Positions 35,191 through 57,493 of a stretch of 64,000 nt of DNA are shown here, piece by piece; position 1 is the first letter of the stretch; every line of letters starts with the position of its first letter. The notes under the pieces are model-generated. The model saw only the letters and a program-made list of their open reading frames with translations. It was not told the DNA's origin and did no database searches. The stretch comes from Prorocentrum cordatum (lineage: Eukaryota): positions 1 through 64,000 of the forward strand of contig CAUYUJ010000130.1 of NCBI GenBank assembly GCA_963575745.1, read 5' to 3'. A program made the position numbers and the translations under genes.

Positions 35191-35298
35191 GCGCTGGCAC
35201 AGCGCGCCCCCGCACGCCGACCGAAGGGTGAGGCCGTGGCCCCCCGCACAGCACACTTGGCTACTCGAGCCGAGGTTGGGAAGTTAAGGAGCAGGCCC

Positions 35299-37180: not shown

Positions 37181-37280
37181 NNNNNNNNNNNNNNNNNNNN
37201 NNNNNNNNNNNNNNNNNNNNNNNNNNNNNNNNNNNNNNNNNNNNNNNNNNNNNNNNNNNNNNNNNNNNNNNNNNNNNNNN
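37181..37280. other. Assembly gap (100 N)
   Basis: Run of N; contiguity across it is not guaranteed. Confidence 1.
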
Positions 37281-38020
37281 CTGAAATCTGACCCCTTCCG
37301 CCCATCCGTCACCATTGCGTAGAATTATTATGCATCCGCCGATGGGTGTCCTAGCCGACCTGGATCCCTCAAGTGATCCCATCGTGTGACGCGCATCGGA
37401 GGGGGAGCAGGAGCCCGCAGATGAGCAGGATGATGAGCACGATGAAGATTAGGATGAGGACATCGGAAGATCAGGAGCAGCAGGAACAAGAGCAAGAGCA
37501 GGATAAGTGTGAGGAGCAGGGGGATGCGAAATATGGGGAAGGAAGGAGGTGGCAACGAAGAAGAACCGAATGATCAAGACACATAGCCCGCGCTGGGGAG
37601 AGAGCGCCAAACTGAACGACGCCGGCAAAACGTTGATCCTGAAATGCGGACAACGATGTAGCAGGAGCACGCTTCTCGAACGGTGGATAACGTTATGTGG
37701 GGACAGTGTCAGATTGAACGCCAGTTCGAACACTCTTGCGTGTAACATGAGTAGGTGAGATAGGTGGGGAAACAATTCAGAGCATCATGGGAGAGAGGGT
37801 CGCACTAATCATATTGCGTAATTTTGGAAGGAGAGGTACATCCCGGGGGTCGGAGTCCGAGTTGCCATGTGACCTCACAGCGAGGGGAAGTGATTTGGGA
37901 ACGAGGGGTGAAGCCGACTTTATTACCTAACAGCGAAGACTGATAGGTTTCTAGTTGACTCAAAAGAGCTCACAGATCACTCCACAGGGGGGTCCGGGCA
38001 GGCGTTGGGAGTTGCCGGCC

Positions 38021-38324
38021 GACTTGAAGGGTAGCTCTTTGGGAGATGTTACAGTATCGGGAGCATAGCTCGCGCGCCGCTGCCTTGGGCTCAAGGCACG
38101 CGCGCCCTATTTGCCCGGACACCGCGAGTGTTCGCTATGTGCTGGAAAGATCATTACATCGATCTTATCCTATCTTATCCGCCCACCCCTCATACTGTAC
38201 CTTCACAGCTACAGCAGAGCGATGGACGCTATTTGCCATCCGATGTCCACGGTCGGCGCCTTGGAATCGGATGCTATATGACAGGCTATATGCCCTATTT
38301 GAGTTACCAAGCTCACTTTCGACT
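38021..38324 (+). repeat. 5' LTR
   Basis: Direct repeat of 53815-54118, about 5 substitutions by eye. Confidence 0.93.
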
Positions 38325-41300
38325 TGGTAGCGGAGCTGGCCGCACTCTCGTGTGGTCAGCTCTTGCTCTTCTCAGCCTCACATTCTTCGGCACGATCTTC
38401 GTGACCGCCTACTACCCTGCGCCACCACTCCCAGTACATTTACGAGGATCTGTTCAAGAGCAAGAAGCTACACGAGAGGTACGACGTCTAGACGACCAGA
38501 TTGGTACCATATACGCTTCATCATTGCGTTACTATCAACCGCTCGGCAACGAGCCAATAACGCAATACCTGAAGCTAGGGCGGGGAAACCCGCCAGACAG
38601 AGCGCCTCGAAGACTCGACAAGGCGCTACCCCAGCGTGACACCGCTCATCATAACCATTCTTCGTTACACATTCTTGGGCTAATCGTTTTCGCTATCATA
38701 TGGTTCGCGCTGGGGGCAGCAATCGCACACATGCGTCGGGGAGATAACAGCACCGATGGGCAAACACATGGCCCATACTGGGACCCTCAGGGTAATGTAA
38801 CTTTTCGTGAGTACATTTACGAGGTCAACGCGTGGCTCAACGTTACAAGCGGACGTATGACGCCACAGGCCCAAGCGGCCGCAATACAACGCGGCCTGGG
38901 AGGCCTAGCGAGGACACTCGCCATGAGGGTACCGCCTGACATTATAAACTATGGTGCTGACATTGATGGGGTCCACACGGACCCAGTAACTTACATCATG
39001 TTCCTCCTCAGCATGAAGTTCGAACGCCTGGAAGATGAGCGACAGTTCACTTCCGGCACACAACTCATCGACTTCCATGTGCCTCACGGGGAACGAATCG
39101 ACGTCACTCTTACCCGATTCGAAATGGCCCGACTTGAGGCACAGTCGGTGGGATTCGACCCTCCTAACTTCCAACTGCTAACTACTATCCTATTCCGCGC
39201 CTTAGGCGTCGGCAGCCAGAAAGCCATGCAACTCTCGCAGCCACTCAACCACCAAATGCCTCGAACACAACAACAATATGATGAGTTGCTGGAAAGGATG
39301 CGTTCGGTAGGTCACCTATCCGAACGATCCCCTGGCAACGTAGGATCCGTGTTTGAAAGAGGAAGGGGATCTGGTAGTGGAAATTTCTACACTACCTTGA
39401 CTATTGAAGTCCAGCCTGGAAACGGGCCCTCAAACATATGGGCCGATGACCCAGGAGAATCCATTGCTTTATTAGCAGGGGGTCGATCACAACCAAGCTG
39501 GGCAACCAGCCCTCCTTCTAGAGAACCACAACCACACCGCTCGTTATGGGGGGAATCAAATCCCCTAACCGACGGTGTATCCACTTATTTAGGAGACGAA
39601 GATTTCGATTCCGGCACCGACACAGACACTATATCATCAGATGGTGTTGAAGCTCTAGATTGGTCAGATATCATGAATATGGATAACGACAATCAGCGTG
39701 CTGAGCATTTATTCTGGCTGTTACAACAGGCTAAGCGAAGGTGGAGGAGGTTCGCACGAAAACCAGCGCGTCGTGTTAGAAGGAGGATACGCAGAAGTTT
39801 TAAAGGAAAGGGTAACGGCAAGCGTGGTCGTCGGAGGTTGAACGGGCGAGGTATCGCGGCATTTCTCCAGAGGCTCTCAGATGAACAACATGATGAGATA
39901 TTCTTTGGGGGAAAAGGCCGCGGTAAAGGCCGTGGAGAGACCTCAGGGAAAGGCAAAGGTAGGCGGGGGAACCCGCGAGGTAGAGACGGCCAGGTTCTCA
40001 AATGTCATGGGTGTGGTAGTACCGATCATCTTGTGCGAGATTGTCCAGCGAAGGGAAATGGAAAGGGCGTGTCGTCCGAAGTCCATTTCGGCTCAAGCAC
40101 ACCATCCATTGAGTATCTGAGCCTCCAGGACTTTGAGGCTATGGAACAGATATTTGTCACATGGGTCGTTGGCATGGACAACGTTGACGAGCTCGAGGGG
40201 TATGGTCATGGATTATACGCGTATTACCTCGAGTACGTCCGCCGGTTCGTCACGGGCAGTAATGAACTCACTCCCGTGGAACACGGTACGCTCGGAAACG
40301 AGCCTCTTTCCTTCTTCGACTGGATGTTCGGGAACCCAGGCAACATCATGGCCTACGAGAGCGACGGCGAGGACACCACTATAGAGGCTTCGCCTTCCGA
40401 GGTTCAACAGAACCTCGAACCTCCGCCCGAAATCCCGCCTGGACACAGGCCTTTTCTGCTGGGAGAATATCCCCATACTATTGAAGACTTAATTGAAATG
40501 GAGTCTCAAGCATTTGTTCAGGCCTTCATTGCAGGTGAACCAGGTTCTCCGTTCATACCTCCTGGTTCGCTTGCTCCAGGCGAATATGGGCCGCGTACAC
40601 TTTTGCAGACCCTCATGTGGATGCATGAGATACTTGCAATTGCATATCCTGAGAGTCAAGAACAAATTGAAGCTGGTATTATGACAGATAATGATAATGA
40701 TGCTTGCGGTAGCTCAGAGCTACTCTTGGCAGCGTTGTCTCTCATCGACAGTATAAATCCTCAGGAAGTGCAGCGACACTTAGTATACTCCCATGGTAGA
40801 TGGCGTCGTGCCCTGGAAATGGCAATGGCTATGCGTGGTCATGATCTTCCCCCGCCAGGATGGAATCTCCAGGAGCTGGGGATGAGGCCAAACCACACGG
40901 CCATGCGTAACATTGCTAGGCAGCCTATGCTCGTCGAAGACCCTGAGCCGACGACTGCGCCTCCTACTCCAGGGCAGCCGAGTGACGGCCAGACGCCGGC
41001 CATGCAGGGAAACCTGCCTTTACCAGATGCGCCAATGGCCATCCTAATTGGTAGTTCGACATCAGAAGAAGTAGAAGGCGATGGTTGTGGGTTAGATGAG
41101 GATGACGTCACCATCCTCATGATGGACGTGACTGGTGAGGAAGAGGTCGATTTCGACCCTGATGAGTCTGAACCATCATCACCATCGGCACAAGAGCCAC
41201 TTGCGCCGAGCTCCACCCAGCAGGGAGACCTGCCTCCATCGAGCGATCCACCCGGGATCGCAGAGGAGCCTCCTCAAGCACCTCCAACGGGTGCCGCCCC

Positions 41301-44300
41301 TGCTGCATCAGCAGCCTCTTCTGATGAGAACACCAGAAGATCTCGTTCCCATACGCGCGTCAGAGGAGAGCCACATCTTCAGGCTCGACTCCCTCGTGAT
41401 TGGAGACAGGCTGGCCCAAAGGAACACGCTGCCAGAAGAGGTGGCCAGCTACTTCCATACAACGACCCACGACGCCGAAAAGGGGAACACTCGGCCTTCG
41501 GCCAGGGCAATCCTGCCTATAGGGACGGCGATGGCAGACCCATCCGTGGAGGCTATCAGCTCGCAACAAACATCCGCCGCCCTGAAATTCAAGAAGCGCG
41601 GACCCAGTTGCGAGATATTATCGCGGCTCGCAAGCAGTATAGGCCTCACGCTGCATGTGGTCCTTGTTCCCAGCCGTTCCAGAATCACAGGCCAGGATGC
41701 CCCGTTGGAAACAACGAAGGCCTGAGCCCCAACAGGGGCAAAACCCCTCCTAAGGAGGGCCATCCGCCACTTGACCCGATGACACCGGAAGAGATCGCAG
41801 CAGTGAGTAGTCGTCTCGGGATCTTGGGCCACTTGGATCCGAAAGAAGAAGAGAAATCTACTCCGGCTCCAAGGGGAATGGTAGCCATGACCCAGGAAGA
41901 GAAAGACGCGCTCTTTAGTCTTCCTGGTATGCGAGGAAACTCGCCTGGCGTATCTAGCCAGTCCCAACAACCAGAGCCGATCATCGAGGACGAGACAAAG
42001 GCTCAACGTGTGGCGGAAGATGAGGAGCGTATTCAGACAGTAGATGAACGCACACGCGAGGCAACTCGCAAGATGCTGGAGGATTCCAGCAAGCTCTACA
42101 TAAAGGGGGCTAGAAAGCCCCCACTCCCACTAACTTCGAAGGCCAAGAGTGAACCCCCGACACCTAAGCCGCCTCCGGCGCCGAAACGCACAGCTCCTAT
42201 ACCAGCATCTGTGCCCAAGCAGCAACCCCCGGACCCCACTGAGGAACGAAGACGTTCGCTTAGCCGCAGCAAGTCCATTGCGGAACGGGCGGCAGCTTTC
42301 GAGCGCAGTGAGTATGCACCTGCGCCAGCTTCGCCTGTGGCGGCTCGTTCCAGGAGGTCCGATGAAGGTGCTATGTCGAGGGGTAACTGGGTGCCGAAGA
42401 TCAGGGGCAGCGCCAGTCGCGCATCTCCGCGGGGAAACCCGCCAGGCGCTGCTGCCGCAGCTTTCTCCTCTTCAGGAGCCGCAGCCTCTTCAGCAACAGC
42501 GGCTCCGATGCGGGGAAACCCGCCAGCAGTTCAGCTGCACCACCCAGGAGACACATCCTTCACTAGTGGGACTCCAGATCTGATCAGGGATAGACTGGCA
42601 CTTCGGAAGCTCCCACCGATACGTTCGGTGGATGAGCCATTCATGAAAGAATGCAGGAAGGCCGGAATTCTTTCCAGATCCAATGATACTCTTAAAAGGT
42701 TAAGCAAAGCTATCAGCAGGATCTGTAGACATGCGCCAGATAAGCCACATAATTCTGTGTGGCGCCTGAAATCTTTTGATGATCATGATGGTTGGATCAA
42801 CCTCGTGGACCTCGTGGAGAACTTTCCTTGGAACACAAGTCACTCGAGGCACGCTTATGAAGAGGCCAAAGTTATTAGCGAGCAGTTGTATGGTCGCTCG
42901 GTTGACCAACTCGCAGCCATCATGATGGAAGTTGTTCATGTTCGTGAACCAGACGGAGAAGAAAAACAGCGCCTTCAATTCAAGGTGCTAATGCGGGACT
43001 CTGGCGAGCCTGCTATCTTCGTCCGCGCCTCTCAGGGGCATTCATGGAAATTGAAAGCTCCATGGTCGCTGTACAGCTACATTGTACTGTGCGACGAACC
43101 CGCCGGGAGACCGGCCAAATACCCTGAAGTCGCCATGCATGGCACTCGATGGCACGCTTTCGAAGGCATTATGTGGCACGGCCTGTCCTGTAGACCTGAG
43201 CACAACACGATGAAAACGGGGACAGGCCGTTCACACATCCACTTCGTGCCGACATTGCGCCGCCGTGCCGTGAACAGTGGGTGGGACCCAGAATCAGACA
43301 TCATCTTTGTAGATTGGCGCAAGGCCATACAAGATGGTATAAAGTTCTGTTGGTCCGATAACGGAGTCCTCTTGTCCGAGGGAGATAACGGTATCATTGA
43401 ACCGTATTACATTTCCCATGTAGAGGACCTGACCACTGGAAGGCAATGGCGCAACCCAGAATATTTGGGGATTCGCCGTGCGCGAGTCTCTGTCAGTATG
43501 ATGACTGCCCCAGATAGGTGGGCTGATGTTGGTGATTCCAGCGTTAAGTACAAGTGGTCCCGAGACCAAGAGGGCGTTGATCCAGCCATGGTCTACCTCC
43601 ACAGGGACGTTGGGGACCACTACAGCCCCACCCAGCTGGGAAACCAGCCTGAGATCTTTCGGATCTTTATGATCACCGAGAGTGAGGCCGGGAGCGCGGC
43701 TCCAAGCCGTGCCCCAAGCCAAGGGCCGAGCGCCGTATCTTGGCAGGCCATAAGTACTTCAGACCTGGATCAGATTGCAGCTGCGCTGAACCCTGACCAG
43801 GTAGAACAGCTGGCGGACAGGCTGTACCAGCAGGACCCCTGGGCCGCAGGCCAGGGAGCCATGTCCGCTATGGCCACGAGAAATCGTCAAGCCATGCAGG
43901 GAAACCTGCCTACAAGCGGACCTGCTCGGTTCGAGCCAATGCACGCAAGCCCCACACAGAGCATGCACACTCCAAGGGGCATGACTCCAGCGGGCACTCC
44001 GCCAGCACAATCCCCATTTGGGACACCTGTTCGCCCTGCAGTAAACTGCACACTCATGGAGAGGTTAGCTGCGGCTAGGGCTGATCACAGCACAGCCCTC
44101 CTCAACATGATGCCGCCCGGCACGCCAACGAGTCAGCAAGGAAACCTGCCTGGTACACCAAGCCACCGCAGGGCAGGTATACCCGACGACTATCGCTCAA
44201 GAGTGGCGGCCGCGGTACAGCAGGTGCAGAACCATAATCTGCCTCACCCAAGTGGGCAGAGGTGGAGGCCAGCCTGGTCCTGGGAACCGGAGGGTCCCAA

Positions 44301-45441
44301 CCCACGGGACCCCGCTCGGCAACGAGCCTTTATCCCGGCGTTCAACGCCCATCCGAGCATGTCTCAGGGCCAGAGGCCACCACCCACGCAGATGAATCCG
44401 CCATTATACACTGACGGTACAAGGGTCCCGAACAAATTTGTTCGGGAATTGGCGGATCAGATGCATAACCTCACCAATGCGCGCTGCAGTGACCACTCCA
44501 TGTACCCGCACATGGCCTTCATGCCTCCTCCAACATCACCAGAGGTGGTTGTACAACCCACTGCCCATTCAATATCGTCTGGCAGTAGGGGCGTGCCTGA
44601 CTACATCAGGCAGACGCACCACACTCAGCAGGCATGTTTCATGAGGAGGCAGGCGGTGCAAAGTGTACGGGACCAGTCACGTGCAGCTGCACTCGATGTG
44701 GCGCGGAATAGGGGCTCACCTTTGCGAGGAAACTCGCCCGCCGTGACTCCTACCACTTCCATGCCAAATGTCGAAGGGCCGGAGGTGATGGACCTAACGG
44801 GGACTCCCCCATCAGCCTTCATGCCCTCCGAGACGGTACTGGAGAGGCAGCGGCGGGTATATCCCAGGGTAGCAGACGTAGAAGTCTTTACTGGGATGGA
44901 GGACACCTGTGCAGTATGCCTCGAAGAATTTCAGCCCAGGGATAGTGTGTATCGCCTGAGGTGCAATCACCTATTCCACGAGGGATGCTGGAATTCTAAC
45001 GTGGTGGGCCACGTGACAAACCAGCGTGAGGGAGATCCACAGCAGCCACCATGTGCGATCTGTCGTGCACTTGGCATTATAACATCGTCCTTCCCATGGA
45101 CTGGCTCCCTTAGTCAGACTCCCGAGCAGTCAATGAGGGAGCTGCGGGAGCTAAGGAGCATGGTGGAGGAGATGACGGCCAGGATGCTAGCTATGCAGAC
45201 AGCTTCGTCACACCAGCAGGGGCACCTGCCTGAAGAGGTAAGGCCGCCTATGGCAACGGGATATTTCGATCAGCTTATCCCGATGACGGCGCCTCAGCAG
45301 GGAAACCTGCAGGATACTCCTCAGATGTCTCCCAGAGTGGAGGCGAGGTTGAGATGTCATTGGACCCTGATCAGCTGCGCGAGTTGCGTGTACGACATTT
45401 CCAGAATCAGATGGATAATACACACACAACGTTTATGCTAG
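38128..45441 (+). CDS. Giant Gag-like ORF (2437 aa): 2 hydrophobic helices, Gag core, Arg-rich tract, CCHC knuckle, Tpt1/KptA domain, RING-H2
   Basis: Uninterrupted ORF with zinc knuckle CHGCGSTDHLVRDC at 40003-40044. The true start is uncertain (in-frame ATGs at 38278, 38290, 38731). Confidence 0.85.
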   Translation: MFAMCWKDHYIDLILSYPPTPHTVPSQLQQSDGRYLPSDVHGRRLGIGCYMTGYMPYLSYQAHFRLGSGAGRTLVWSALALLSLTFFGTIFVTAYYPAPPLPVHLRGSVQEQEATREVRRLDDQIGTIYASSLRYYQPLGNEPITQYLKLGRGNPPDRAPRRLDKALPQRDTAHHNHSSLHILGLIVFAIIWFALGAAIAHMRRGDNSTDGQTHGPYWDPQGNVTFREYIYEVNAWLNVTSGRMTPQAQAAAIQRGLGGLARTLAMRVPPDIINYGADIDGVHTDPVTYIMFLLSMKFERLEDERQFTSGTQLIDFHVPHGERIDVTLTRFEMARLEAQSVGFDPPNFQLLTTILFRALGVGSQKAMQLSQPLNHQMPRTQQQYDELLERMRSVGHLSERSPGNVGSVFERGRGSGSGNFYTTLTIEVQPGNGPSNIWADDPGESIALLAGGRSQPSWATSPPSREPQPHRSLWGESNPLTDGVSTYLGDEDFDSGTDTDTISSDGVEALDWSDIMNMDNDNQRAEHLFWLLQQAKRRWRRFARKPARRVRRRIRRSFKGKGNGKRGRRRLNGRGIAAFLQRLSDEQHDEIFFGGKGRGKGRGETSGKGKGRRGNPRGRDGQVLKCHGCGSTDHLVRDCPAKGNGKGVSSEVHFGSSTPSIEYLSLQDFEAMEQIFVTWVVGMDNVDELEGYGHGLYAYYLEYVRRFVTGSNELTPVEHGTLGNEPLSFFDWMFGNPGNIMAYESDGEDTTIEASPSEVQQNLEPPPEIPPGHRPFLLGEYPHTIEDLIEMESQAFVQAFIAGEPGSPFIPPGSLAPGEYGPRTLLQTLMWMHEILAIAYPESQEQIEAGIMTDNDNDACGSSELLLAALSLIDSINPQEVQRHLVYSHGRWRRALEMAMAMRGHDLPPPGWNLQELGMRPNHTAMRNIARQPMLVEDPEPTTAPPTPGQPSDGQTPAMQGNLPLPDAPMAILIGSSTSEEVEGDGCGLDEDDVTILMMDVTGEEEVDFDPDESEPSSPSAQEPLAPSSTQQGDLPPSSDPPGIAEEPPQAPPTGAAPAASAASSDENTRRSRSHTRVRGEPHLQARLPRDWRQAGPKEHAARRGGQLLPYNDPRRRKGEHSAFGQGNPAYRDGDGRPIRGGYQLATNIRRPEIQEARTQLRDIIAARKQYRPHAACGPCSQPFQNHRPGCPVGNNEGLSPNRGKTPPKEGHPPLDPMTPEEIAAVSSRLGILGHLDPKEEEKSTPAPRGMVAMTQEEKDALFSLPGMRGNSPGVSSQSQQPEPIIEDETKAQRVAEDEERIQTVDERTREATRKMLEDSSKLYIKGARKPPLPLTSKAKSEPPTPKPPPAPKRTAPIPASVPKQQPPDPTEERRRSLSRSKSIAERAAAFERSEYAPAPASPVAARSRRSDEGAMSRGNWVPKIRGSASRASPRGNPPGAAAAAFSSSGAAASSATAAPMRGNPPAVQLHHPGDTSFTSGTPDLIRDRLALRKLPPIRSVDEPFMKECRKAGILSRSNDTLKRLSKAISRICRHAPDKPHNSVWRLKSFDDHDGWINLVDLVENFPWNTSHSRHAYEEAKVISEQLYGRSVDQLAAIMMEVVHVREPDGEEKQRLQFKVLMRDSGEPAIFVRASQGHSWKLKAPWSLYSYIVLCDEPAGRPAKYPEVAMHGTRWHAFEGIMWHGLSCRPEHNTMKTGTGRSHIHFVPTLRRRAVNSGWDPESDIIFVDWRKAIQDGIKFCWSDNGVLLSEGDNGIIEPYYISHVEDLTTGRQWRNPEYLGIRRARVSVSMMTAPDRWADVGDSSVKYKWSRDQEGVDPAMVYLHRDVGDHYSPTQLGNQPEIFRIFMITESEAGSAAPSRAPSQGPSAVSWQAISTSDLDQIAAALNPDQVEQLADRLYQQDPWAAGQGAMSAMATRNRQAMQGNLPTSGPARFEPMHASPTQSMHTPRGMTPAGTPPAQSPFGTPVRPAVNCTLMERLAAARADHSTALLNMMPPGTPTSQQGNLPGTPSHRRAGIPDDYRSRVAAAVQQVQNHNLPHPSGQRWRPAWSWEPEGPNPRDPARQRAFIPAFNAHPSMSQGQRPPPTQMNPPLYTDGTRVPNKFVRELADQMHNLTNARCSDHSMYPHMAFMPPPTSPEVVVQPTAHSISSGSRGVPDYIRQTHHTQQACFMRRQAVQSVRDQSRAAALDVARNRGSPLRGNSPAVTPTTSMPNVEGPEVMDLTGTPPSAFMPSETVLERQRRVYPRVADVEVFTGMEDTCAVCLEEFQPRDSVYRLRCNHLFHEGCWNSNVVGHVTNQREGDPQQPPCAICRALGIITSSFPWTGSLSQTPEQSMRELRELRSMVEEMTARMLAMQTASSHQQGHLPEEVRPPMATGYFDQLIPMTAPQQGNLQDTPQMSPRVEARLRCHWTLISCASCVYDISRIRWIIHTQRLC
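38325..38336 (+). promoter_or_regulatory. Primer-binding site TGGTAGCGGAGC, probably for initiator tRNA-Met
   Basis: Begins immediately after the 5' LTR. TGG pairs with tRNA CCA, and TGGTAGC fits the 3' end typical of eukaryotic tRNAiMet. Confidence 0.8.
42691..43425 (+). CDS. TPT1: RNA 2'-phosphotransferase (Tpt1/KptA/TRPT1) domain within the Gag ORF
   Basis: Motifs in order: LSKAISRICRH, DGWI, KQR, VRASQGHS, HGT, GL, RSHIHF, IFVD...DGIKF..SDNGVLLSEG..G.I.P.Y. Confidence 0.9.
44908..45066 (+). CDS. RING-H2 (C3H2C3) finger within the Gag ORF
   Basis: CAVCLEEF...LRCNHLFHEGC...PCAICR; all eight ligands present. Confidence 0.88.
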
Positions 45442-46947
45442 ATGCCAATAATCCTGAAACTGATAGTCCGTCGTTAGACCTATCAGAATCCTCAGCGGCG
45501 TCAGCAGCAGCAGCCAGAGCCGTCAACATCTCAGCGGCGAATGAGGAGTTCGAGGAGTGGCTGCGGTACCGGGATCACGTCATGAACGAAGGGCTGCAAG
45601 ACATCGCCCTTCACTCGTACCTAGCGCTGATAAGGCGCACTACCCGCGAGCAGTATATGAGCATACGTGATGAGTATGCCAACTGGCGGGGGGAGCGTGG
45701 TGATCACGCCCAGCACGTGTCGTACTTCCAGTACATTGACCTGGCACGCATGGCCGAGAGCGAGTCGCATGCCAGTGTCGTGCGGGGTAACCCGCCAGGG
45801 AGTGCGAATGTGCCGCGGGGAAACCCGCCTACCGACGCAGCCGACACTTCAGAAACTGTGCACATCAAGCAGCCGAATAAGACGTTCTTGGATGATGGTG
45901 GAAATTCCATACTCATCGACGTCGGTTCGAAGATCAACATCATGGGCGAGAACACGAGCCGTAAGTTCGTTCAGGTTGCTGAGTCACATGGTCGTGCATG
46001 TACATTCGAGCCCCGCTCTCGTTTGCATATCAACGGAGTGGGAGAGGGGTCGGCCCCAGCGGATACTGCAGGCACATTTAGCATTGCCTGCGAGTACCAG
46101 GGGTCAGCCCAACACGATTCATACAAGACGAACATTGTGTCAGGCTTTGTCCTGTTTTGAATTTCTATTGCCGGTCCTGTTCTTTGTTTTTTGTGTTGTG
46201 GTCTTGTGGACGTTGGTTTTTTGTTTTTATGCATTCTGTTGTGTTCTTGTCGTTGTTCTTGTCTTTTTGGGGCCCCGGTTTTGTGGAAAGGACCTGCCAG
46301 CCATCCTAGGTCTCGATAGTATGCAGGACAAACGCACGATCATCGTGCTTGAACGAGGCCAGGAAAAGCTGATATTCCCGGGTAAGGGGCAGGTCAAGAT
46401 GGAGCTCCCGGAAGGCTCCAAAATCATGCCGACGACGAAGTTGCCGTCAGGGCATCTGTCGATCAGGTGTGATCGTTTTGGAGCTGCGGGGCAACCCGCC
46501 TCGAGCTCAAGCAGCACGTCCTTCCAGACAGCGCTGACAGGCGAGCCGACCCCAGCGCAGGAGCGCAATCAATTGCAGGGAAACCTGCCCCAGGGGGTGA
46601 TGGAGACGCTCGCCAAGGCCACCATGCGAGGCGACAACATCGACGATCTCGAGACGTTCGAGTGTTTTGTTGCCAGGACACTGGCCCTGCATGGTGGTAG
46701 TGTACCCATGGACGCTGTGCAGTCCCGCCGTAAAATAGTGATGGGATACACTAATCGTGAATTGCATACGGTCAGCGACGCTAGGTCCAAAGGCGCGCTG
46801 AAACAGTTGATGGATAATCCATCGATGCTGACAGCATTTGCGGAGCAATCCGCCGCTGAGGCCACGGCGCGCTGCAGCGCTGAGCTCCAGCATCTGAGGG
46901 AAGCCCAGATGTTGGCAGATATTGTAGGCACATCTTCTTCATCTTGA
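45354..46947 (+). pseudogene. Aspartic protease region, interrupted by a 136-bp T-rich insertion (46146-46281)
   Basis: ILIDVGSKINIMG (Asp at 45918), HINGVG and PAILGLDSM. Removing the insert restores NIVSG-CGKDLPAILG in frame. Confidence 0.8.
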
Positions 46948-48336
46948 AGATGGCAGGGCGACGTCGCCCCCTCGTCGTCTTGCCTGATGGCTGAAAAGCC
47001 GGGGGGTAACAAGGACAGCGGGGCAACCTTCCTTAGTAAGAGGGCTTTTGTCATTGAAGATACGAGGGAGGCATGTGCCGACCTCCGCACACGAGGTTAT
47101 ATGTGTGACCGTATTTCCCACAACGAACTTATGACAAGCGTGGGCACAAACTATCTAGGTGCGGTGATCAGTGGAGATTACACTCTCATATGGATCAGTA
47201 CTCCGGGTGACTGGTATATACGAACTCCAGGAAAGAGAGTGGCCCCACACTGGTCACGTATCCAGAACCTGTTGGTAAAAGCCAAGAAACTCCGCATGAA
47301 AATCATCATATTCGGTCCCCCAGGATATGTTTGGAAGTTATCTCCAGTACGTGATACTCTGGAAGATCTAAAGTTGTCAGTAATACTGATGCGTTTGTGT
47401 CATTTCGGTATTCGGTTCAATATGCAAGACAATACACCAAGTGGTACATATATGCAGGTAGCATCATCGATACCGATTAGCTCGAAGCTGTGGACATGTA
47501 CCTGTAAGCAGGCCATACCACAACATGTGTTGGACTGGTACGGCCATACGGTACGACATGCTGAATGGCGGGCTCAGACACGTACTACACTCATCCGTTA
47601 CCTAAACGACAAAATCCTGGGGAGTACCACCACGCACGGAAACGTGCCCGTATACTTAGATACGTATACACGTACAGACCATAATACTCGTCATTACGTG
47701 ACTACTCATAAAGGAGGACCAAAATGGTCTGAAGTTATCCGACGTGTAACAATCAACTTGGATACCAACGCGGTTATTCAAGATATCTCAGTTACCGATC
47801 AACCAACAGGGTATGATTGGCATGCACCATTACCTGCAGGGGTTGCCAACATCAGTACTCGGTTGTATTGGCAACCCGAGAAACCGGTCTTGCTCGGAAA
47901 CGAGCCTACTCAATCACCACAGAAACATAGACGCGTCATCATAGATGACTGTTCTCTCCCCCTCCCGACTCTGGCGATTGACGCATGTACCCATTCCACC
48001 ACGACAATGAGTACACAGACCGACGAACAAAACGAGCAAGCTTTACCCACTGAGTTGCGTATAAAGCAGAAGGAAAGGCTCAAAGCCGAAAAGGAAGCAG
48101 GCATCAAGCCTCGCCGCATTAAAAAGCACGTCGAAGACGGAAATGACGATTGCGGCGACGACTTGTCAGGACTCGGACAGGATCTTATGGCAACCTGGAG
48201 TACTGACGCCCCTGTCGAGCTGATAAGCTCCGACGAGGGCGAGGACCTGTTCCTTGCCCCCCCCACATCTATGCCCGACACACACGCTGACATATACAGC
48301 ATAGTTGCTACACTATGCTATGGCCATAACAATTGC

Positions 48337-48960
48337 GTGGATATGTTGGAGCTTTGTGGTGGTGAGGGTGGCATCTCAGAGCTTGCCTTCTCAAGGGGAC
48401 TGTCCTCAGGCGGCAACTTGGACAAGACTACATATGTCGACCTGGGAGACCCCTCGGTGCAGCAGGTGGTAGATCACTACTTCAAGATATGCTACGTACG
48501 AGTTGCCATACTGCAACCCAGCTGCCGCACCACAGGACCACCATCTTACTATAACTACAAAGTCAACTATAACACTTGGGAACAGCACCACAGAGAAGAC
48601 TTACCACACATAATCTATTGTGGTAGAATTGCTGTTACCCAAGATGACGCTCAGAGGTGGTTTATACGCGAACAACCGACAGGAACATGGGTGGACGATA
48701 TTTCTCCATGGACGAAGCTTACCGACCGACCACACATCACGACCGTACGCATTGATCAATGCGCTACTGGACTTAAAGATACGACTGGTGACTATATTAA
48801 GAAGCCGACAAATATCACCAGCAACGACAAGACAATTCTTTAACCCTTTGAGCGACTCAAGTGCAACGGTCAGCATGTGCACGCACAACCGTGCAACACC
48901 GAGCTTTCACTGGCACAAAAATACACTCGACGACTGCAGTCTGCCTTCGTGGAAGCCGTC
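48337..48960 (+). pseudogene. Cytosine-C5 DNA methyltransferase-like domain (in-frame TAA at 48841)
   Basis: MLELCGGEGG (motif I-like), ILQPSC (catalytic PC-like), FIREQP (motif VI-like), DQC..GL, KKPT, C.G.H.H and AQKY. Confidence 0.65.
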
Positions 48961-49740
48961 TACTTGGCGAAAGCCATTGACACCACGCGCGGAAACGCGC
49001 CTATAAATACTGCACATGCTTATCCTGCCGACCTTCCTGAGCAAGCTGAACTAGGTGAAGGTATGAGACGCATCGGTGATCGTATCATCCCAAAGGTGGC
49101 TACGTGCCCGGCATGCATCGACAACGTCCGAAAGGACAGTCCTAGCCATAACAGGGACCCTACGCAGTGCAAATATCATGACTCTATCTCTGTATACTGG
49201 CCATGTCCAGCATGTCAGAGGGATCTTACGAGAAGCAAGGGTGTTAAGAATCACCTTGATACCGAACCTGGTAAATGTCGTTTTGCTGAACCATTTAAAC
49301 TACCAGACGACCACGACCCCGAAGGCAAAACCGTGCCAGCTTGGTGGGAACCCTTACCTAAACCTGGTGAGGGCCAAGCTTCAGCTTCAGGTGGCCGCCA
49401 AGGCGCACACGCCAGGCCACCACGACCACGTTCCTTCGGTAACGTCGATCCGACATCTGGTACCAGCAGCTACGACCTGCTACGACACGCCCCCGAGCGT
49501 GAAAACACGCCTTCTGCGTCTTCTAGCGATACGCCACAGGTAGCGGCCCGCCGCGGACGTCTACAAGGCGTACCACCACCTCCAGACGCAGTCAACACAG
49601 GGGATCAACTACGCAGAGCTACAAGGAACCCCCTTGCCTCCACCGGCTCTGGGGCTCCACGACTACCCGACTGGACGAGATTTGACATCCAACACAGTCT
49701 ACAGAGTCTCCGTAGTCACGAACCCCATGTTGTGAAAAAA

Positions 49741-50420
49741 GGAACTCCGAAAACTGCATCTGCGATGGTATCATGCGAAGGAGCCAAAGATGAGGCTAAT
49801 CCTCGAAAAGGTGGGGCTTGATAACGTTCGACTGAACATGATCAAGGAAATATGCGACACCTGTCGGGAATGTAGAGCATGGGAACGTCCAGGAAACTCG
49901 ACATTACCATCGGTAAGCCTCCCTGGCAACTGGCTCGATGAAGGGGAAATGGACCTCATGTTTTACAAGAAACGGACCATATTTCATGTTATGGATCGTT
50001 GTATTCGCTTGACAGCAGGCCTTGAAATTTCCGACAGAGAACGCGACACAATCATCGATGCCTACCACTACTGCTGGATTGCCTATCACGGACCCTTCAA
50101 AGTTTTATACTCAGATGGAGAAGGCGCCCTGAATAATGAGGCCGCTAAAAGCATGATGGCCAATAAGGGCGCGGAACTTCGTATCCGAGCACCGGGCCAA
50201 CACGCGACTTCAATTGAGTCACGAAACGGCATTCTCAGAGGCGTCCTCCACATGATTGAGGAAGAATTGAATACACACAACATCCCTGTTGTATTCACTA
50301 GAGTATTGGCGGAAGGCATCTTCGTTACTAATGCGTTTACGTTTTATAACGGAGTATCGCCATATCAGGCACAAACAGGACGTCAGCCCTCCTTCCTTCC
50401 TGATCTCGATACCCTTGACT
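49741..50420 (+). CDS. Integrase (HHCC + DDE core)
   Basis: Upstream of the track ATG, the frame reads ELRKLHLRWYH...CDTCREC. Core motifs EMDLMF, YSDGEG and IESRNG. Confidence 0.85.
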
Positions 50421-51759
50421 TTCCCAAGGGACCCGAGACTTCAGGACACGAACGAGAACGTCGTGTAAGGGAAGTCAGCCTCGAAGCCATAACTCAGGCT
50501 ACTGCTGTAGCCAAGACAAATCGGGCTCTTAGGGCGAAGACGACTCCTGATGGTGCTCGCCTCTACTCATCAGGGGATTTGGTCGACTACCACCGACCTA
50601 CTGCCACCAAGGACGACCATGGAGGCTGGAACGGCCCATTCCCGGTGATCCGAAACGTGCCTGTAAGAGGACATATTGTTGTCAAGGCAGGATCTCGTGA
50701 GGTAATTGTGATGTATCCTGATGCTCGTCACACACTATACATCGAATGTCTCCTCACGCGGGAACTTGGCATGGATAACATGGCCATGCAAACCGTCCTT
50801 GCCTATGTGGCACATCTCAGTGCAGGGAAACCTGCCAAAGTTTTCGGGTATATTCCCGACTACAAGGGAAACCTTAACCTGTCAGACGATAGCAAGTTTC
50901 ACCCGCGCGCACACCTAGCACTACAGTATCTCGTACGAAATTACTTCAGAGTGGAACATGTAGTAGCAGTTCGATTGGCTAAGAGTGTGTCAAGCCTACC
51001 TGCAGTAAAGTACGCCACCGGGTCTACGCTGATCCACTATGACAATGACATTAGCCCGGCGTTCCACTACTATGAATGTGTGGGCACCGGCCTAAACATC
51101 TCTCAGATTACTGGTAGCACTCACTCCAGACTTATTCAATGCTTGACTTCACGTGTCCCTTCCTTAGGATTTCACGATGACCTGGCTAAATATCAGCATC
51201 CAAGCAATACGTCTGGAGAACACGAGTCGCCTGGAAACAGGCCTTCTCCAGACACACCAGATGCTTCATCGCCTAGCGAAGGCCGTCTGTCGACAATCTA
51301 CGAGGAAGATGAGGAACACAATATCGAAGCCATGATGCTGGAAGAGTGGTACGACGAACTACGTATGGACCTTCATCCTACGACGATTACAGATGATTAT
51401 CTCTATTGCGTCCCAACAACTATGCTGCCTAACCAATGCGTTTTGGTTTCAGCATTTGCGGACGAAGATGATATTACATCATCAGATATGCTCGGAGACG
51501 AGCCTAGATTATGTGAGTCTTGTCTGGTATCTCTTTGTTCGAACACAAACGACGAGAGCTATTCCCTAGACAGTGATGAATATGGTCCTTACGTTGAACT
51601 ATGCTTTACATCAGAAATGTCAAAAATAGTGTTGGATCAGACCCAACTTGCACAGCTCGATACCGATATGGTCGCAACGATGAGAGTATATGTATCCAGT
51701 GCTGCTAAACGTGCTGTGGTTGTCAAAGAAGATGACCTACTGACCAAAGCCGACATAGC

Positions 51760-53355
51760 AGCACATCCAAAGGAGGTTAGTGAAGCCTTATATACTGAGC
51801 TCAAGATCTGGATTGATAACCGATGCTTTGAGATGTACGACTTATCCAAAGCTTCCAACATCATGACATCCAGATATGTATACAAGTGGAAGTTCGTAAA
51901 GATGGGCACCGAGAACGTTAAAACCATTCGTCTCAGATTGGTCCTTCGTGGAATTATGGATACTGAGGCCTTTGATGTGGAAACATTCTCGGGAACCGCC
52001 CGAAGGCAGTCTCAACGACTCTTGGCAAGTGAAGCGGCATGTCATCCAGAGTGGATCTTAGCATCCATGGATATCGATAAGGCATTCCTAAAAGGTTTGA
52101 CCTACGAGGAACTTGCCCATGCCACTGGCGAGGAAACTCGCATGGTCTGCTTTACTCTTCCACCAGGAAGCGCTCAGGTACTTCGTGCCCTACCCGGCTT
52201 CTCATCCTACGACGAAAGTCGACGCTGTCTTAGGTGCCTCAAACCAGGAACGGGTACTAAGGACGCCCCAAGAGCGCTCTTTCTCAAATTCGTACGACCA
52301 CACGAGCTATAGGACTTTCACCGACTAGCTACGATCCTGAATTTGAATTCAGCCAATATCTTCTGACTGCAAAACATGTCGATGACATTAATATGACAGG
52401 TCTAGAGAAAAATATCGACGACTATGTACAACGCGTCGAAAAGGTTTTTGGCAAATGCAAGCTCAACAAGCACACATATACGAACTGTGCCGTCCGCTAC
52501 ACTAAGAATGATCAGGGAGATGTGATCATGGACCTGGACGAGTATATCAAACAACTACGTCCCATCACACATCCAGAACTTACAGGAGCGGCGGCCGACG
52601 CCAAAGCCACGAAACTTATTACCGACATGTTCGTCAGCCTGCGAGGAGCCCTCGCCTATGCCCTTCTTATTCAAATCTGGCTTATGGTATATGTGGTCTC
52701 TCTTCAGAAAATTCAAGAGCCCACCAATTTACAAGTCAGCCGTTTGAATGCTGTGACGCGAAAGCTGATCAGCAGTCCGAAACGTATCACCTTCCCTCGG
52801 ATGAAGCCGACGAATGAAGTCGACATCCATAGCGATTCGGGATATCGGAAGCTTACCGGGGAGGAGGATGACGAGACCAAGGGCTACGGCATTCGCGGGG
52901 CCAACGTACTACGGCGAGGAAACTCGCCTCAAGGCAAGTCCGTCGTTCGTGACGGACAATGCAAATCACACCGATTACAGGTGAGGTCCAGTTATGCTGC
53001 GGAGGCACTTGCAGCCGCACATAAACTTGATGAGTGTTACCCTACGCTCATTACTCTCCATGAGCTTAAGGCAGGGGCCTTGACTCCACGACAACTACGA
53101 GATATGCGTGAAGTTGGAGGCCTTGCTATCAAAGTCTCTCTGACCATAGACGCTGAGTCCGTCTACAAATATTTATCAAGCAGGGATCTCAAAATACCCA
53201 CAGAACGGACTCTGCTTGGACATATCAGTTGGATACGTGAGCTTATGGATATAGGTATAGTACATAACGTGCAATGGTGTGATACTAGGGATATGACCGC
53301 AGATGGGCATACAAAGGGAAGCATCGATCGGGAGCTGCTTCTGGAAGTGATGTAA
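51760..53355 (+). pseudogene. Copia-type reverse transcriptase and RNase H (frameshift near 52285)
   Basis: RT: SRYVYKWK, RLRLVLRG, MDIDKAFLKG, GTKDAPRA, then in the next frame KHVDD (~52375). RNase H: HSDSG, RSSYAAE, IDAESV, WCDTRDMTADGHTK. Confidence 0.9.
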
Positions 53356-53814
53356 GGCACTCAGTCATTTAAGTATGACGTGAAGCAATTTGTTCCCTTT
53401 CGGGGTCCCGAGGACAGAGACAAACCCAAGTCTAATCAATTTTAGTCTGTCCTTGTTGCCCTCGCGGTCCAGTTTGCCAGCACGGGCGCCTATTATAAAG
53501 GCGCCCCTTTAGCTGCTCGGAAACGAGCCTTATATTTCACGCCTGGCAACGAGCCGGCTTCGTACAACTCAGGCTCTTTGCCTTAATACACATTTGCTTG
53601 GTGAGGTATGGCTTAATTTTGGCTTACCTCTAACTGAGCCGATAGCCCTTCATTGTTTGAAGGGGCTGTCCTGTATTTGCGTGAAATACTTTGCGAGGAA
53701 ACTCGCCTTACATTCTGGCGTTTGGCCAGTTTGTACGCACTGTTTTCATTTCTTTGCAAACAGTCGTGCGCGCGAATTTTGCGTGCGACTATGCTCTCCG
53801 TCTCCTCCCCTCCC

Positions 53815-54118
53815 GACTTTAAGGGTAGCTTTTTGGGAGATGTTACAGTATCGGGAGCATAGCTCACGCGCCGCTGCCTTGGGCTCAAGGCACGCGCGCC
53901 CTATTTGCCCGGACACCGCGAGTGTTCGCTATGTGCTGGAAAGATCATTACATCGATCTTATCCTATCTTATCCGCCCACCCCTCATACTGTACCTTCAC
54001 AGCTACAGCAGAGCGATGGACGCTATTTGCCATCCGATGTCCACGGTCAGCGCCTTGGAATCGGATGCTATATGACAGGCTATATGCCTTATTTGAGTTA
54101 CCAAGCTCACTTTCGACT
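53815..54118 (+). repeat. 3' LTR
   Basis: Direct repeat of 38021-38324. GGCC flanks the element on both sides (38017-20, 54119-22), a possible TSD. Confidence 0.93.
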
Positions 54119-57476: not shown

Positions 57477-57493
57477 TGTGTGTTTATTATTAT

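What the first reader, a model, noticed from the sequence alone, without database searches (positions are those of the whole stretch)
38541..53706. About 30 covarying GNRA-tetraloop hairpins dispersed along the sense strand of the LTR retrotransposon
Seen: the 14-mer GC-NN-G-[GNRA]-C-N'N'-GC recurs with a perfect 5-bp stem at 38541, 38580, 39963, 40290, 41004, 41220, 41931, 42429, 42510, 43102, 43635, 43896, 44314, 44724, 45297, 45782, 45815, 46486, 46575, 47634, 47892, 48987, 50822, 51229, 51490, 52128, 52914, 53515 and 53693. There is also CGTTG-GAAA-CAACG at 41703 and near-perfect copies at 39414, 44136, 45216 and 49497. The variable pairs covary (GG/CC, AG/CT, GA/TC, TC/GA, TG/CA, CT/AG, AC/GT, CG/CG, GC/GC) and loops stay GNRA (GAAA, GCAA, GAGA, GGAA, GTAA). 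The motif occurs in all three codon phases (RGNP/QGNL; AGKP/AGQP; GEETR) and in the 3' UTR, so the constraint acts on nucleic-acid structure, not on protein. Chance expectation for any 5-bp stem plus GNRA is about 0.5 per 15 kb at uniform composition. Inference: a distributed cis code, such as multiple packaging/compaction signals like those of ssRNA viruses, docking sites for an element protein, or ssDNA mini-hairpins. I know of no such array described for LTR retrotransposons.
Basis: partly seen in the sequence, partly recalled or inferred. Interest (0 to 1): 0.92.

Follow-up and report, generated by a model that had tools for sequence, protein, structure and literature searches.

The report
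Tetraloop hairpin array inside a retrotransposon
A 16-kb jumping gene carries about 35 copies of one tiny RNA hairpin on its coding strand, and relatives keep such hairpins at the same places with different but still matching stems, so they look like selected docking signals on the element's RNA.

Summary
The + strand of a Copia-type LTR retrotransposon (38019-54118) holds 31 perfect GC-NN-G-GNRA-C-N'N'-GC hairpins, one CGTTG variant and about 7 near-perfect copies. The antisense strand and the other 48 kb of the window hold none. Dinucleotide shuffles give 0.013 and synonymous-codon shuffles 0.68 against 17 in ORF1.

- **Exact shape:** the stem is exactly 5 bp, with a sixth pair in 2 of 31, and a C follows in 27 of 31.
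- **Clade distribution:** forty metagenomic relatives show the array only in one 100/100-supported clade, with 104 sense against 10 antisense hits. Outside it the counts are 9 against 16.
- **Lineage-specific stems:** TCACG/CGTGA, GCACG/CGTGC and GCA-N-G/C-N'-CGC.
- **Conserved sites:** hairpins sit at the same linker sites with compensatory changes. Covariation is 0.438 against 0.126 in shuffles.
- **Origin:** some arose by substitution inside conserved protein motifs, others by duplication of modules.

Selection therefore acts on a sense-strand nucleic-acid structure. The function is untested. My best inference is repeated docking sites for the element's Arg-rich/CCHC nucleocapsid, that is, dispersed packaging signals. 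My five literature searches found no such array described for retrotransposons.

The parts
38019..54118 (+). Copia-type LTR retrotransposon, 16.1 kb, a mildly degenerate copy of a very high-copy family
   Evidence: LTR pair, TSD and PBS. IN-RT-RNase H order and RVT_2. Summed contig depths in the thousands in runs X1 and X2.
38019..38324 (+). 5' LTR (306 bp); holds no hairpin
   Evidence: 98.4% identical to 53813-54118. Flanked by the GGCCG target duplication; an empty-site-like copy lies at about 55190-55260.
53813..54118 (+). 3' LTR; preceded by a C-rich pyrimidine tract where a polypurine tract is expected
38325..38336 (+). Primer-binding site TGGTAGCGGAGC
   Evidence: The identical 12-mer occurs in L004, L005, L006, L008, L011, L013 and L018.
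38541..38554 (+). Hairpin GCTCG-GCAA-CGAGC; leader doublet with 38580
38580..38593 (+). Hairpin GCGGG-GAAA-CCCGC
39414..39427 (+). Near-perfect hairpin GCCTG-GAAA-CGGGC (one U.G wobble)
39497..39510 (+).
39963..39976 (+). Hairpin GCGGG-GGAA-CCCGC, laid over the conserved nucleocapsid peptide RRGNPRG
40290..40303 (+). Hairpin GCTCG-GAAA-CGAGC
41004..41017 (+). Hairpin GCAGG-GAAA-CCTGC
41220..41233 (+). Hairpin GCAGG-GAGA-CCTGC
41703..41716 (+). Hairpin CGTTG-GAAA-CAACG (non-GC base)
41931..41944 (+). Hairpin GCGAG-GAAA-CTCGC
42056..42069 (+).
42429..42442 (+). Hairpin GCGGG-GAAA-CCCGC
42510..42523 (+). Hairpin GCGGG-GAAA-CCCGC
43102..43115 (+). Hairpin GCCGG-GAGA-CCGGC, in a variable loop of the Tpt1 domain
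43635..43648 (+). Hairpin GCTGG-GAAA-CCAGC
43896..43909 (+). Hairpin GCAGG-GAAA-CCTGC
44136..44149 (+). Near-perfect GCAAG-GAAA-CCTGC (A.C mismatch)
44314..44327 (+). Hairpin GCTCG-GCAA-CGAGC
44724..44737 (+). Hairpin GCGAG-GAAA-CTCGC
45216..45229 (+). Near-perfect GCAGG-GGCA-CCTGC (loop is not GNRA)
45297..45310 (+). Hairpin GCAGG-GAAA-CCTGC
45782..45795 (+). Hairpin GCGGG-GTAA-CCCGC; doublet with 45815, 33 nt apart
45815..45828 (+). Hairpin GCGGG-GAAA-CCCGC
46486..46499 (+). Hairpin GCGGG-GCAA-CCCGC
46575..46588 (+). Hairpin GCAGG-GAAA-CCTGC
47634..47647 (+). Hairpin GCACG-GAAA-CGTGC; same alignment column as L004 2213
47892..47905 (+). Hairpin GCTCG-GAAA-CGAGC
48987..49000 (+). Hairpin GCGCG-GAAA-CGCGC
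49497..49510 (+). Near-perfect GCGTG-AAAA-CACGC (loop G replaced by A)
49888..49901 (+). Near-perfect TCCAG-GAAA-CTCGA (one mismatch)
50822..50835 (+). Hairpin GCAGG-GAAA-CCTGC over the conserved integrase-region peptide AGKP; L001 has one in the same column
51229..51242 (+). Hairpin GCCTG-GAAA-CAGGC, IN-RT linker site A
51490..51503 (+). Hairpin GCTCG-GAGA-CGAGC, IN-RT linker site B, shared with 11 of the 13 other clade loci examined
52128..52141 (+). Hairpin GCGAG-GAAA-CTCGC made by substitution inside the conserved RT motif TGE-x-ER (GEETR here)
52914..52927 (+). Hairpin GCGAG-GAAA-CTCGC over RNase H peptide RRGNSP; L001, L011 and L013 have hairpins in the same loop
53515..53528 (+). Hairpin GCTCG-GAAA-CGAGC in the 3' UTR
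53693..53706 (+). Hairpin GCGAG-GAAA-CTCGC in the 3' UTR
39730..40090 (+). Candidate reader of the hairpins: nucleocapsid region with an Arg-rich helix (AKRRWRRFARKPARRVRRRIRR), GKG repeats and one CCHC knuckle (about ORF1 residues 566-685). Binding is inferred, not tested.

Best explanation
The hairpins are selected cis-acting structures of the element's full-length sense RNA. Each is an exactly 5-bp stem closed by G-C, capped by a GNRA tetraloop and followed by an unpaired C. Copies recur about every 500 nt from the leader to the 3' UTR.

I infer that they work as repeated, near-identical docking sites for one RNA-binding protein. The most likely reader is the element's own Gag nucleocapsid region, which has an Arg-rich helix and one CCHC knuckle. 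Many Gag molecules would then nucleate along the 16-kb RNA, selecting and condensing it into the particle. This would be the retrotransposon counterpart of the dispersed packaging signals of ssRNA viruses.

Shown: the motif, its strand and clade specificity, its covariation, its positional conservation, and its origin both by substitution and by module duplication.

Inferred: that the molecule is RNA and not plus-strand DNA, that a protein reads it, which protein, and that the outcome is packaging.
For: **Non-random and strand-specific.** Counts are 31 strict hairpins on the sense strand, 0 on the antisense strand and 0 in the rest of the window. Shuffles give 0.013, and 0.68 when the protein is kept.

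**Base pairing.** 32 of 73 GGNRAC sites have 4 of 4 flanking pairs, against 2.9 when the 3' arms are permuted. Among the 31 GC-type stems, permuting the arms leaves 5.3 +/- 2.1 perfect.

**GNRA rule on the sense strand.** The window's loops are GAAA 22, GCAA 5, GAGA 3, GGAA 1 and GTAA 1. Relatives also use GGGA, GCGA and GTGA.

**A defined shape, as a protein reader would need.** A sixth pair occurs in only 2 of 31, where 25% is expected (p=0.008). Position +15 is C in 27 of 31.

**Predicted stability.** Mean dG is -7.95 kcal/mol. In a +/-100 nt context the stem-pair probability is 0.91 on the sense strand and 0.61 on the antisense strand.

**Evolution.**
- All hairpin-rich relatives form one clade (100/100), with 104 sense against 10 antisense hits. 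Outside the clade the counts are 9 against 16.
- Perfect hairpins number 33 sense and 2 antisense in 99.6 kb of near relatives, and 0 and 0 in 85 kb of far ones.
- IN-RT linker site B holds a hairpin in 12 of 14 clade loci, with 8 different stems.
- Three of its 5 pairs show double changes, and covariation is 0.438 against 0.126 in shuffles (0 of 500 reach it).
- In L011 the outer stem extension also covaries between copies.

**Made in place.** GEETR replaces GEQER in the RT, and RRGNP is conserved in the nucleocapsid. The far clade encodes that same peptide without a 5-bp hairpin.

**Where packaging signals usually sit.** Doublets lie 120-256 nt downstream of the primer-binding site in the window, L011 and L013. 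Others lie in 3' UTRs in the window, L004 and L005.

**A candidate reader exists.** The Arg-rich helix and CCHC knuckle are present.
Against: - No binding, structure-probing or packaging data exist.
- The nucleocapsid region is conserved in the far clade, which has no hairpins. No clade-specific reader was identified. A more Arg-rich helix in the window rests on a single comparison.
- Non-Watson-Crick pairs do not clearly favour G.U over A.C. Counts are 17 against 16 in near-clade one-mismatch hairpins and 3 against 1 in close-pair changes. L004/L005 carry a constant A.C at pair 3. RNA is therefore not proven over DNA.
- In close pairs, hairpin columns are only modestly more conserved than other columns: 16 of 269 differ against 1313 of 15151.
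- The strong codon-phase bias (20 of 29) is not predicted by packaging alone.
- The hairpins are far more uniform than known dispersed viral packaging signals.
Confidence: 0.45

Rival explanations
1. The hairpins bind a host protein and not an element protein. They could serve nuclear export, stabilisation or localisation of the long unspliced RNA, or evasion of a host surveillance pathway.
For: The sequence evidence is the same as for the main reading: strand, shape, covariation and conservation. No clade-specific element protein was found to match the clade-specific hairpins.
Against: Stems are lineage-specific even among close relatives. That fits a co-evolving element-encoded reader better than a conserved host factor. 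About 30 copies are more than the export elements I recall use.
Confidence: 0.2
2. The hairpins act during reverse transcription. They could be pause or strand-transfer sites, or internal plus-strand initiation sites. They might fold in displaced plus-strand DNA, where G-A-closed mini-hairpins are also very stable (recalled).
For: - No polypurine tract precedes the 3' LTR. A C-rich pyrimidine tract lies there in the window and in L011.
- Four contig joints in public runs, one contig each, have both ends at or beside hairpins: 42526>45836, 42525/6>38580 and 45756>42506. A fifth, 40403>51229, has one end at a hairpin.
- DNA parameters still give -4.9 kcal/mol.
Against: - A plus-strand primer that defines the LTR end must abut the LTR. 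The nearest hairpin is 120 nt away.
- Stems in relatives are not purine-rich, for example TCACG and GCACG.
- The joints may be mis-alignments between identical hairpins or diverged copies.
- RNA hairpins are unwound in the RNA:DNA hybrid.
Confidence: 0.15
3. The hairpins are a selfish or neutral by-product. Small hairpin modules would be copied within the element, for example by reverse-transcriptase template switching, and tolerated where they stay in frame.
For: - L007 has three copies of a roughly 36-nt module at distant in-frame sites.
- L003 has two copies of a roughly 50-nt module.
- L011 has tandem 33-39-nt doublets, and two hairpins inserted in an RNase H loop.
Against: - Hairpins persist at the same sites across about 50% amino-acid divergence, with compensatory stem changes.
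- Several were built by point substitution in conserved motifs, not by insertion.
- The sixth pair is depleted and the +15 C is kept.
- Loops stay GNRA when they change.
Confidence: 0.08
4. The hairpins are translational signals. They could cause ribosome pausing at domain linkers, or -1 frameshifting on G GGA AAC.
For: Twenty of 29 coding copies share one phase, and many lie in inter-domain linkers. In that phase the stems ending in G read G GGA AAC, which I recall as a slippery heptamer.
Against: - Copies occur in UTRs and in the other two phases.
- A 5-bp stem is a weak barrier to the ribosome.
- The heptamer lies inside the hairpin, with no downstream stimulator or overlapping frame.
- The stems of relatives, such as C ACG GAA ACG, are not slippery.
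- At three of the places where the window's frame breaks, many or all other copies read differently, so these breaks look like private mutations.
Confidence: 0.05
5. It is a protein-level repeat, such as x-G-N-x-P acting as protease sites or a linker motif, and the palindromy is incidental.
For: The peptides RGNP, QGNL, LGNE, RGNS and HGNV recur in linkers.
Against: - Shuffles that keep the protein lose the motif: 0.68 against 17.
- Codon 2 and codon 5 are complementary whatever residues they encode.
- Copies occur in UTRs and in other phases.
- The far clade encodes the same RRGNP peptide without the 5-bp hairpin.
Confidence: 0.03

Closest known systems
Dispersed packaging signals of ssRNA viruses (packaging-signal-mediated assembly; PMC6281560, highlights and abstract seen in the listing; the examples MS2, STNV, parechovirus and HBV are recalled)
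   Same: Many stem-loops share one loop motif. They are spread through coding and non-coding parts of the sense genome. Stems vary while the loop is kept.
   Different: This is a Copia-type LTR retrotransposon, not a virus. The hairpins are nearly identical, with an exact 5-bp stem, fixed G-C/C-G base pairs and a 3' C, whereas viral signals are degenerate. Binding to the coat protein is not shown.
Retroviral and Ty packaging regions with tetraloop hairpins (HIV-1 SL3 GGAG; MoMLV SL-C/SL-D GACG double hairpin; recalled. Ty1 5' packaging domain: PMC5454406, abstract seen)
   Same: Hairpins bound by a Gag with a CCHC knuckle. Doublets lie in the leader just downstream of the primer-binding site.
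   Different: Known signals are confined to the 5' region. Here about 30 copies run the length of the element, including inside enzyme-coding sequence.
Phage lambda/P22 N peptide-boxB (recalled)
   Same: An Arg-rich helix reading a short hairpin with a GNRA-type loop. The Gag here has such a helix next to the knuckle.
   Different: boxB is a pentaloop in one or two copies and acts in antitermination. There is no homology, and the comparison is by analogy only.
Short mobile palindromes: bacterial REP elements, Rickettsia palindromic elements inserted in frame, mitochondrial GC-cluster or double-hairpin elements (recalled)
   Same: Short hairpins with covarying stems that can sit inside coding sequence. 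Some copies here arose by duplication or insertion.
   Different: Those spread through a whole genome. Here there are none in 48 kb of flanking DNA or in two LINE-like elements. They lie on one strand of one element clade only, and many were made by substitution in place.

Membership tests
GNRA-tetraloop RNA hairpin | Loop is G-N-R-A | tested here: met
   All 32 G-C-closed perfect hairpins have GNRA loops: GAAA 22, GCAA 5, GAGA 3, GGAA 1, GTAA 1. Only 1 GGAAAC site has 2 or fewer flanking pairs. In close relatives, loop changes stay within GNRA.
GNRA-tetraloop RNA hairpin | Stem supported by covariation | tested here: met
   3 of 5 pairs have double changes, and covariation is 0.438 against 0.126 in shuffles (0 of 500 reach it).
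GNRA-tetraloop RNA hairpin | Forms in RNA in vivo or in vitro | not testable with these tools
   Prediction only: pair probability 0.91. No run listed as RNA holds the element.
Ty1/Copia LTR retrotransposon (the carrier) | Direct LTRs, 5-bp target duplication, tRNA primer-binding site | tested here: met
   306-bp LTRs at 98.4% identity, GGCCG duplication, and TGGTAGCGGAGC directly after the 5' LTR.
Ty1/Copia LTR retrotransposon (the carrier) | Integrase before RT; RVT_2-type RT | tested here: met
   The alignment shows a DDE integrase, then RT, then RNase H. RVT_2 scores 27 bits in the window, below the 31.6 cut-off. PF07727 is precomputed on 8 of the 21 homologues.
Ty1/Copia LTR retrotransposon (the carrier) | Polypurine tract abutting the 3' LTR | tested here: not met
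   The sense strand reads a C-rich pyrimidine tract there, in the window and in L011.
Dispersed packaging signals | Multiple sense-strand stem-loops with a shared loop motif across the genome | tested here: met
Dispersed packaging signals | Sequence-specific binding by the capsid or nucleocapsid protein, and an effect on assembly | not testable with these tools
   No RNA-protein tool or experiment was available.
Mobile short palindromes (REP/RPE-like) | Copies dispersed in the host genome outside one element, on both strands | tested here: not met
   0 strict copies in 47.9 kb of flanking window and 0 on the antisense strand.
Mobile short palindromes (REP/RPE-like) | Copies are insertions relative to homologues | tested here: inconclusive
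   Some are: the L011 RNase H loop and the L007 modules. Others are substitutions in conserved motifs.
-1 frameshift site | Slippery heptamer followed by a stimulatory structure and an overlapping frame | tested here: not met
   The heptamer lies inside the hairpin. Flanks add no structure (mean z -0.16). At three of the window's frame breaks many other copies read differently.
Any Rfam family | Match to a curated covariance model | tested here: not met
   0 matches at E<=1 over 37800-54300.

The most novel reading that the evidence does not exclude
A clade of giant Copia-type retrotransposons has written a virus-like assembly code into its own genes. About 30 near-identical GNRA hairpins, overlaid on Gag, enzyme and linker codons, would be read by the nucleocapsid to select and fold the 16-kb RNA. 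Lineage-specific stems would act as barcodes that keep related families from packaging each other. This would be the first dispersed packaging-signal system found in a retrotransposon.
Probability: 0.3. Interest if true: 0.85.

Novelty: new variant of a known kind. Interest (0 to 1): 0.78.

Why it matters
How long retroelement RNAs are chosen and compacted is known for only a few models, and there the signals lie in the 5' leader. A dense, uniform, evolutionarily maintained array inside coding sequence would be a different solution.

It also gives an unusually clean test system. The 14-nt motif has natural compensatory variants, so overlapping RNA-structure and protein codes can be studied directly.

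It shows as well how strongly RNA structure can shape amino-acid sequence. Recurrent x-G-N-x peptides appear in linkers, and there is even a changed residue in an RT motif.

In practice, the motif is a simple marker for this element clade in protist genomes and marine metagenomes.

Tried and rejected
- **Own genome:** none is held.
- **Earlier scan notes:** nothing on this genome, on similar sequence, or on such arrays.
- **RNA evidence:** no RNA holder is listed. Variation at hairpin positions among family copies could therefore not be read; none of the 40 listed differences falls in a hairpin.
- **Viral contigs:** no relative found.
- **Rfam:** no match.
- **Protein Atlas:** only RVT_2 clusters at scores 0.76-0.77, which are leads only.
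- **Stem extension in the window:** flanks do not extend the stem (mean z -0.16).
- **Other recurring hairpins in far-clade loci:** none found.
- **Protein-level footprint in database homologues:** too weak a proxy to use.
- **Link to the Tpt1 domain, rejected:** L007 has hairpins but no Tpt1 match anywhere in its contig, which spans the CCHC knuckle to RING.
- **Conserved domain upstream of the integrase (window 48298-48840):** I suspected a methyltransferase-like fold from motifs I recalled. Pfam and PDB sequence searches found nothing. The AlphaFold model is poor (pLDDT 62) and Foldseek found no match at E<=0.001. This remains unresolved, and the domain is also present in the hairpin-free clade.
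- **Literature:** five searches found no description of such arrays, nor of Tpt1 in retrotransposons. Listings and abstracts only were seen.

Full report

Every coordinate in the finding reads as stated. A scan of both strands finds 31 perfect GC-NN-G-GNRA-C-N'N'-GC 14-mers on the + strand, all between 38541 and 53706. The - strand has none.

With any 5-bp stem plus GNRA, the element has 33 on the sense strand and 1 on the antisense strand. The other 47,907 bases of the window have 2 and 0. That remainder includes two LINE-like retroelements.

Three hundred dinucleotide shuffles of the element give 0.53 (any) and 0.013 (strict). Three hundred shuffles of ORF1 that keep the protein and the codon pool give 0.68 strict, against 17 observed.

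One test does not pre-select on pairing. Of 73 GGNRAC hexamers on the sense strand, 32 have all four flanking pairs complementary. Permuting the 3' arms gives 2.9 (max 11 of 2000). None of the 24 antisense hexamers is perfect. Permuting arms among the 31 GC-type hairpins leaves 5.3 +/- 2.1 perfect.

**2. Anatomy of the motif**

- **Loops** are GAAA 22, GCAA 5, GAGA 3, GGAA 1 and GTAA 1.
- **Stem length** is exactly 5 bp. The next position could pair in only 2 of 31, where 25% is expected (p=0.008).
- **The base after the stem** is C in 27 of 31.
- **Flanks** do not extend the helix in this element (mean z -0.16).
- **Stability:** each hairpin is worth about -8 kcal/mol. Folded with 100 nt on each side, the stem forms with probability 0.91 on the sense strand and 0.61 on the antisense strand.
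- **Codon phase:** 20 copies are in phase 2, giving x-G-N/D-x peptides. Five are in phase 1, four in phase 0, and two lie in the 3' UTR.
- **Doublets:** two pairs of hairpins are 33-39 nt apart.

**3. The carrier**

The element has 306-bp LTRs (38019-38324 and 53813-54118, 98.4% identical). It has a GGCCG target duplication, with an unoccupied copy of the target about 1.1 kb downstream. A primer-binding site, TGGTAGCGGAGC, lies directly after the 5' LTR.

The coding strand carries these features in order:
- Gag with an Arg-rich helix and one CCHC knuckle
- a Tpt1/KptA-like RNA 2'-phosphotransferase domain (E 6e-21)
- a RING finger
- a long unassigned region
- integrase, an RVT_2-type RT and RNase H

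Public runs hold the family at very high summed depth. At three of the places where the window's frame breaks (45583, 49735, 52288), many or all other copies read differently; a further insertion difference lies at 45330 inside ORF1. This copy is therefore slightly decayed. That may also explain the near-perfect hairpins.

**4. Relatives**

A protein search found 21 homologues. A metagenome scan gave 40 loci.

Hairpins of the same design recur on their sense strands with lineage-specific stems:
- L011 has 10 and L013 has 7 perfect copies of TCACG-GRRA-CGTGA. L013 has an eighth with a U.G wobble.
- L006 has GCACG/CGTGC.
- L004 and L005 have GCA-N-G/C-N'-CGC, with a constant A.C at pair 3 and a freely covarying pair 4.
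- L007 has GCAYG/CGTGC with U.G wobbles.
- L029 has GCGA loops.

In the near relatives, perfect hairpins number 33 sense and 2 antisense in 99.6 kb. In the far relatives they number 0 and 0 in 85 kb.

An RT tree was built from 30 of the 41 sequences; 11 loci with under 150 matched residues were left out. It puts every hairpin-rich element in one clade with 100/100 support. Relaxed hits there are 104 sense against 10 antisense, and outside the clade 9 against 16.

In L011, L007 and L003 the tetraloop hairpin caps a longer bulged stem. In L011 the outer pairs of that stem covary between copies.

**5. Positional conservation**

I mapped hairpins onto a protein alignment. They recur in the same columns in up to nine elements.

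Take the roughly 300-nt stretch between the anchors LPTIxE and YVELCF, which is the integrase-RT linker. There, 12 of 14 clade loci have a hairpin, with eight different stems. On that set, 3 of 5 pairs show changes on both sides. The covariation score is 0.438 against 0.126 in shuffles (0 of 500 reach it). Sliding the partner columns drops pairing from 93% to 7-47%. The set was chosen for pairing, so the percentage paired is circular. The number of pair types is not.

Between close pairs the record is mixed:
- Loop changes stay within GNRA.
- Three of four stem changes give G.U on the sense strand.
- Hairpin columns are only slightly more conserved than the rest: 16 of 269 differ against 1313 of 15151.

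**6. How the hairpins arise**

Some are overlaid on conserved protein motifs by substitution:
- The RT motif TGE-x-ER reads GEETR here.
- The nucleocapsid peptide RRGNP is conserved in the hairpin-free clade, where it is encoded without a 5-bp stem.

Others come from duplication:
- L007 has three copies of a roughly 36-nt module.
- L003 has two copies of a roughly 50-nt module.
- L011 has tandem doublets, including two hairpins inserted in an RNase H loop.

Both routes are what selection for more copies would use.

**7. What it most likely does**

Taken together, the evidence shows selection on a structure of the sense strand. The supporting points are strand specificity, the GNRA rule, the exact stem length, the kept 3' C, covariation, and long-term retention at fixed sites.

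I rate that at about 0.9. It is most simply the genomic RNA, although plus-strand DNA is not excluded. G.U is not clearly preferred over A.C (17 against 16).

Such a uniform shape fits a single reader. I favour the element's own nucleocapsid and a packaging or condensation role. Three points support this:
- Hairpin doublets lie 120-256 nt after the primer-binding site, and others lie in 3' UTRs.
- Stems are family-specific.
- Gag carries an Arg-rich helix next to a CCHC knuckle.

The weak points are these:
- No binding data exist.
- The nucleocapsid region is also conserved in the clade without hairpins.
- The codon-phase bias is unexplained.

Rivals are a host-protein site, a role in reverse transcription, selfish modules, translational signals and a protein repeat. 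The last two are poorly supported, as set out in the rival explanations.

**8. Comparison and novelty**

No Rfam family matches. Five full-text searches found no description of tetraloop arrays in retrotransposons.

The nearest concept is the dispersed packaging signals of ssRNA viruses (PMC6281560, highlights seen). Retroviral and Ty leader hairpins and the N-boxB pair are partial analogies, partly recalled.

I file this as a new variant of a known kind.

Noticed in passing
window 42694-43383 (ORF1 residues 1554-1783): A Tpt1/KptA-like RNA 2'-phosphotransferase domain lies inside the Gag-side polyprotein (Pfam E 6e-21). The motifs I recall as catalytic (RH, QGHS, HGT, HIH) appear aligned to solved TRPT1. 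It has no match in L007, whose contig spans the CCHC knuckle to RING, so it looks like a family-specific capture. Two searches found nothing in print on Tpt1 in retrotransposons.
   Followed up: partly
L003 2458, L004 1545, L006 2154, L007 3590/4412/7322, L018 9984; window 46945 and 48841: In relatives, single in-frame TAG stops followed by G separate the Gag-RING part from the rest. L004 and L006 share the context TAG-GTTGCACAGGAGG. This suggests programmed readthrough. The window has TGA and TAA at its two in-frame stops instead.
   Followed up: partly
window 53780-53812; L011 about 3725-3740: A C-rich pyrimidine tract lies where a polypurine tract is expected, directly upstream of the 3' LTR. 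It is seen in both the window and L011.
   Followed up: no
window 48298-48840 and homologous parts of L003, L004, L006, L007, L018, L019, L020, L024 and L025: A conserved domain with invariant motifs (E-x-CGG, N-x-D, P-x-CR, EQP, QC) lies upstream of the integrase, in both the hairpin-bearing and hairpin-free clades. There is no Pfam or PDB sequence match. The model is poor (pLDDT 62) and no fold match was found.
   Followed up: partly
window 38580, 42506-42526, 45836 and 51229 (joints): Four contig joints in public runs (one contig each) have both ends at or beside hairpins, and a fifth has one end at a hairpin. This could reflect recombination or template switching at identical hairpins, or mis-joining of diverged copies.
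   Followed up: no
window 38019-54118 (table 1): Differences among family copies are strand-asymmetric. On the sense strand, T>C (289-361) and C>T (256-315) outnumber A>G (156-221) and G>A (134-176) in all four runs.
   Followed up: no
window 15623-20155 (-) and 29443-35283 (-): Two LINE-like retroelements (RVT_1, RNase H and Exo_endo_phos domains) lie here. Neither carries the hairpin motif, so they serve as internal negative controls.
   Followed up: partly
window 54076-57600: The element is inserted in a roughly 2.36-kb higher-order repeat made of 73-nt and 16/22-nt tandem arrays. The unit recurs at 55123 and 57490.
   Followed up: partly
window 840-4943 and 37181-37280: A roughly 4-kb degenerate (CA)n tract with extreme strand skew, and a 100-N assembly gap about 740 nt upstream of the element.
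   Followed up: no
L004 and L005 hairpins (e.g. L004 1612, 3769, 5492, 7708, 7746): In this lineage pair 3 of the stem is almost always A opposite C, while pair 4 covaries freely. This may be an identity element, a protonated wobble, or an editing site. It is unexplained.
   Followed up: no
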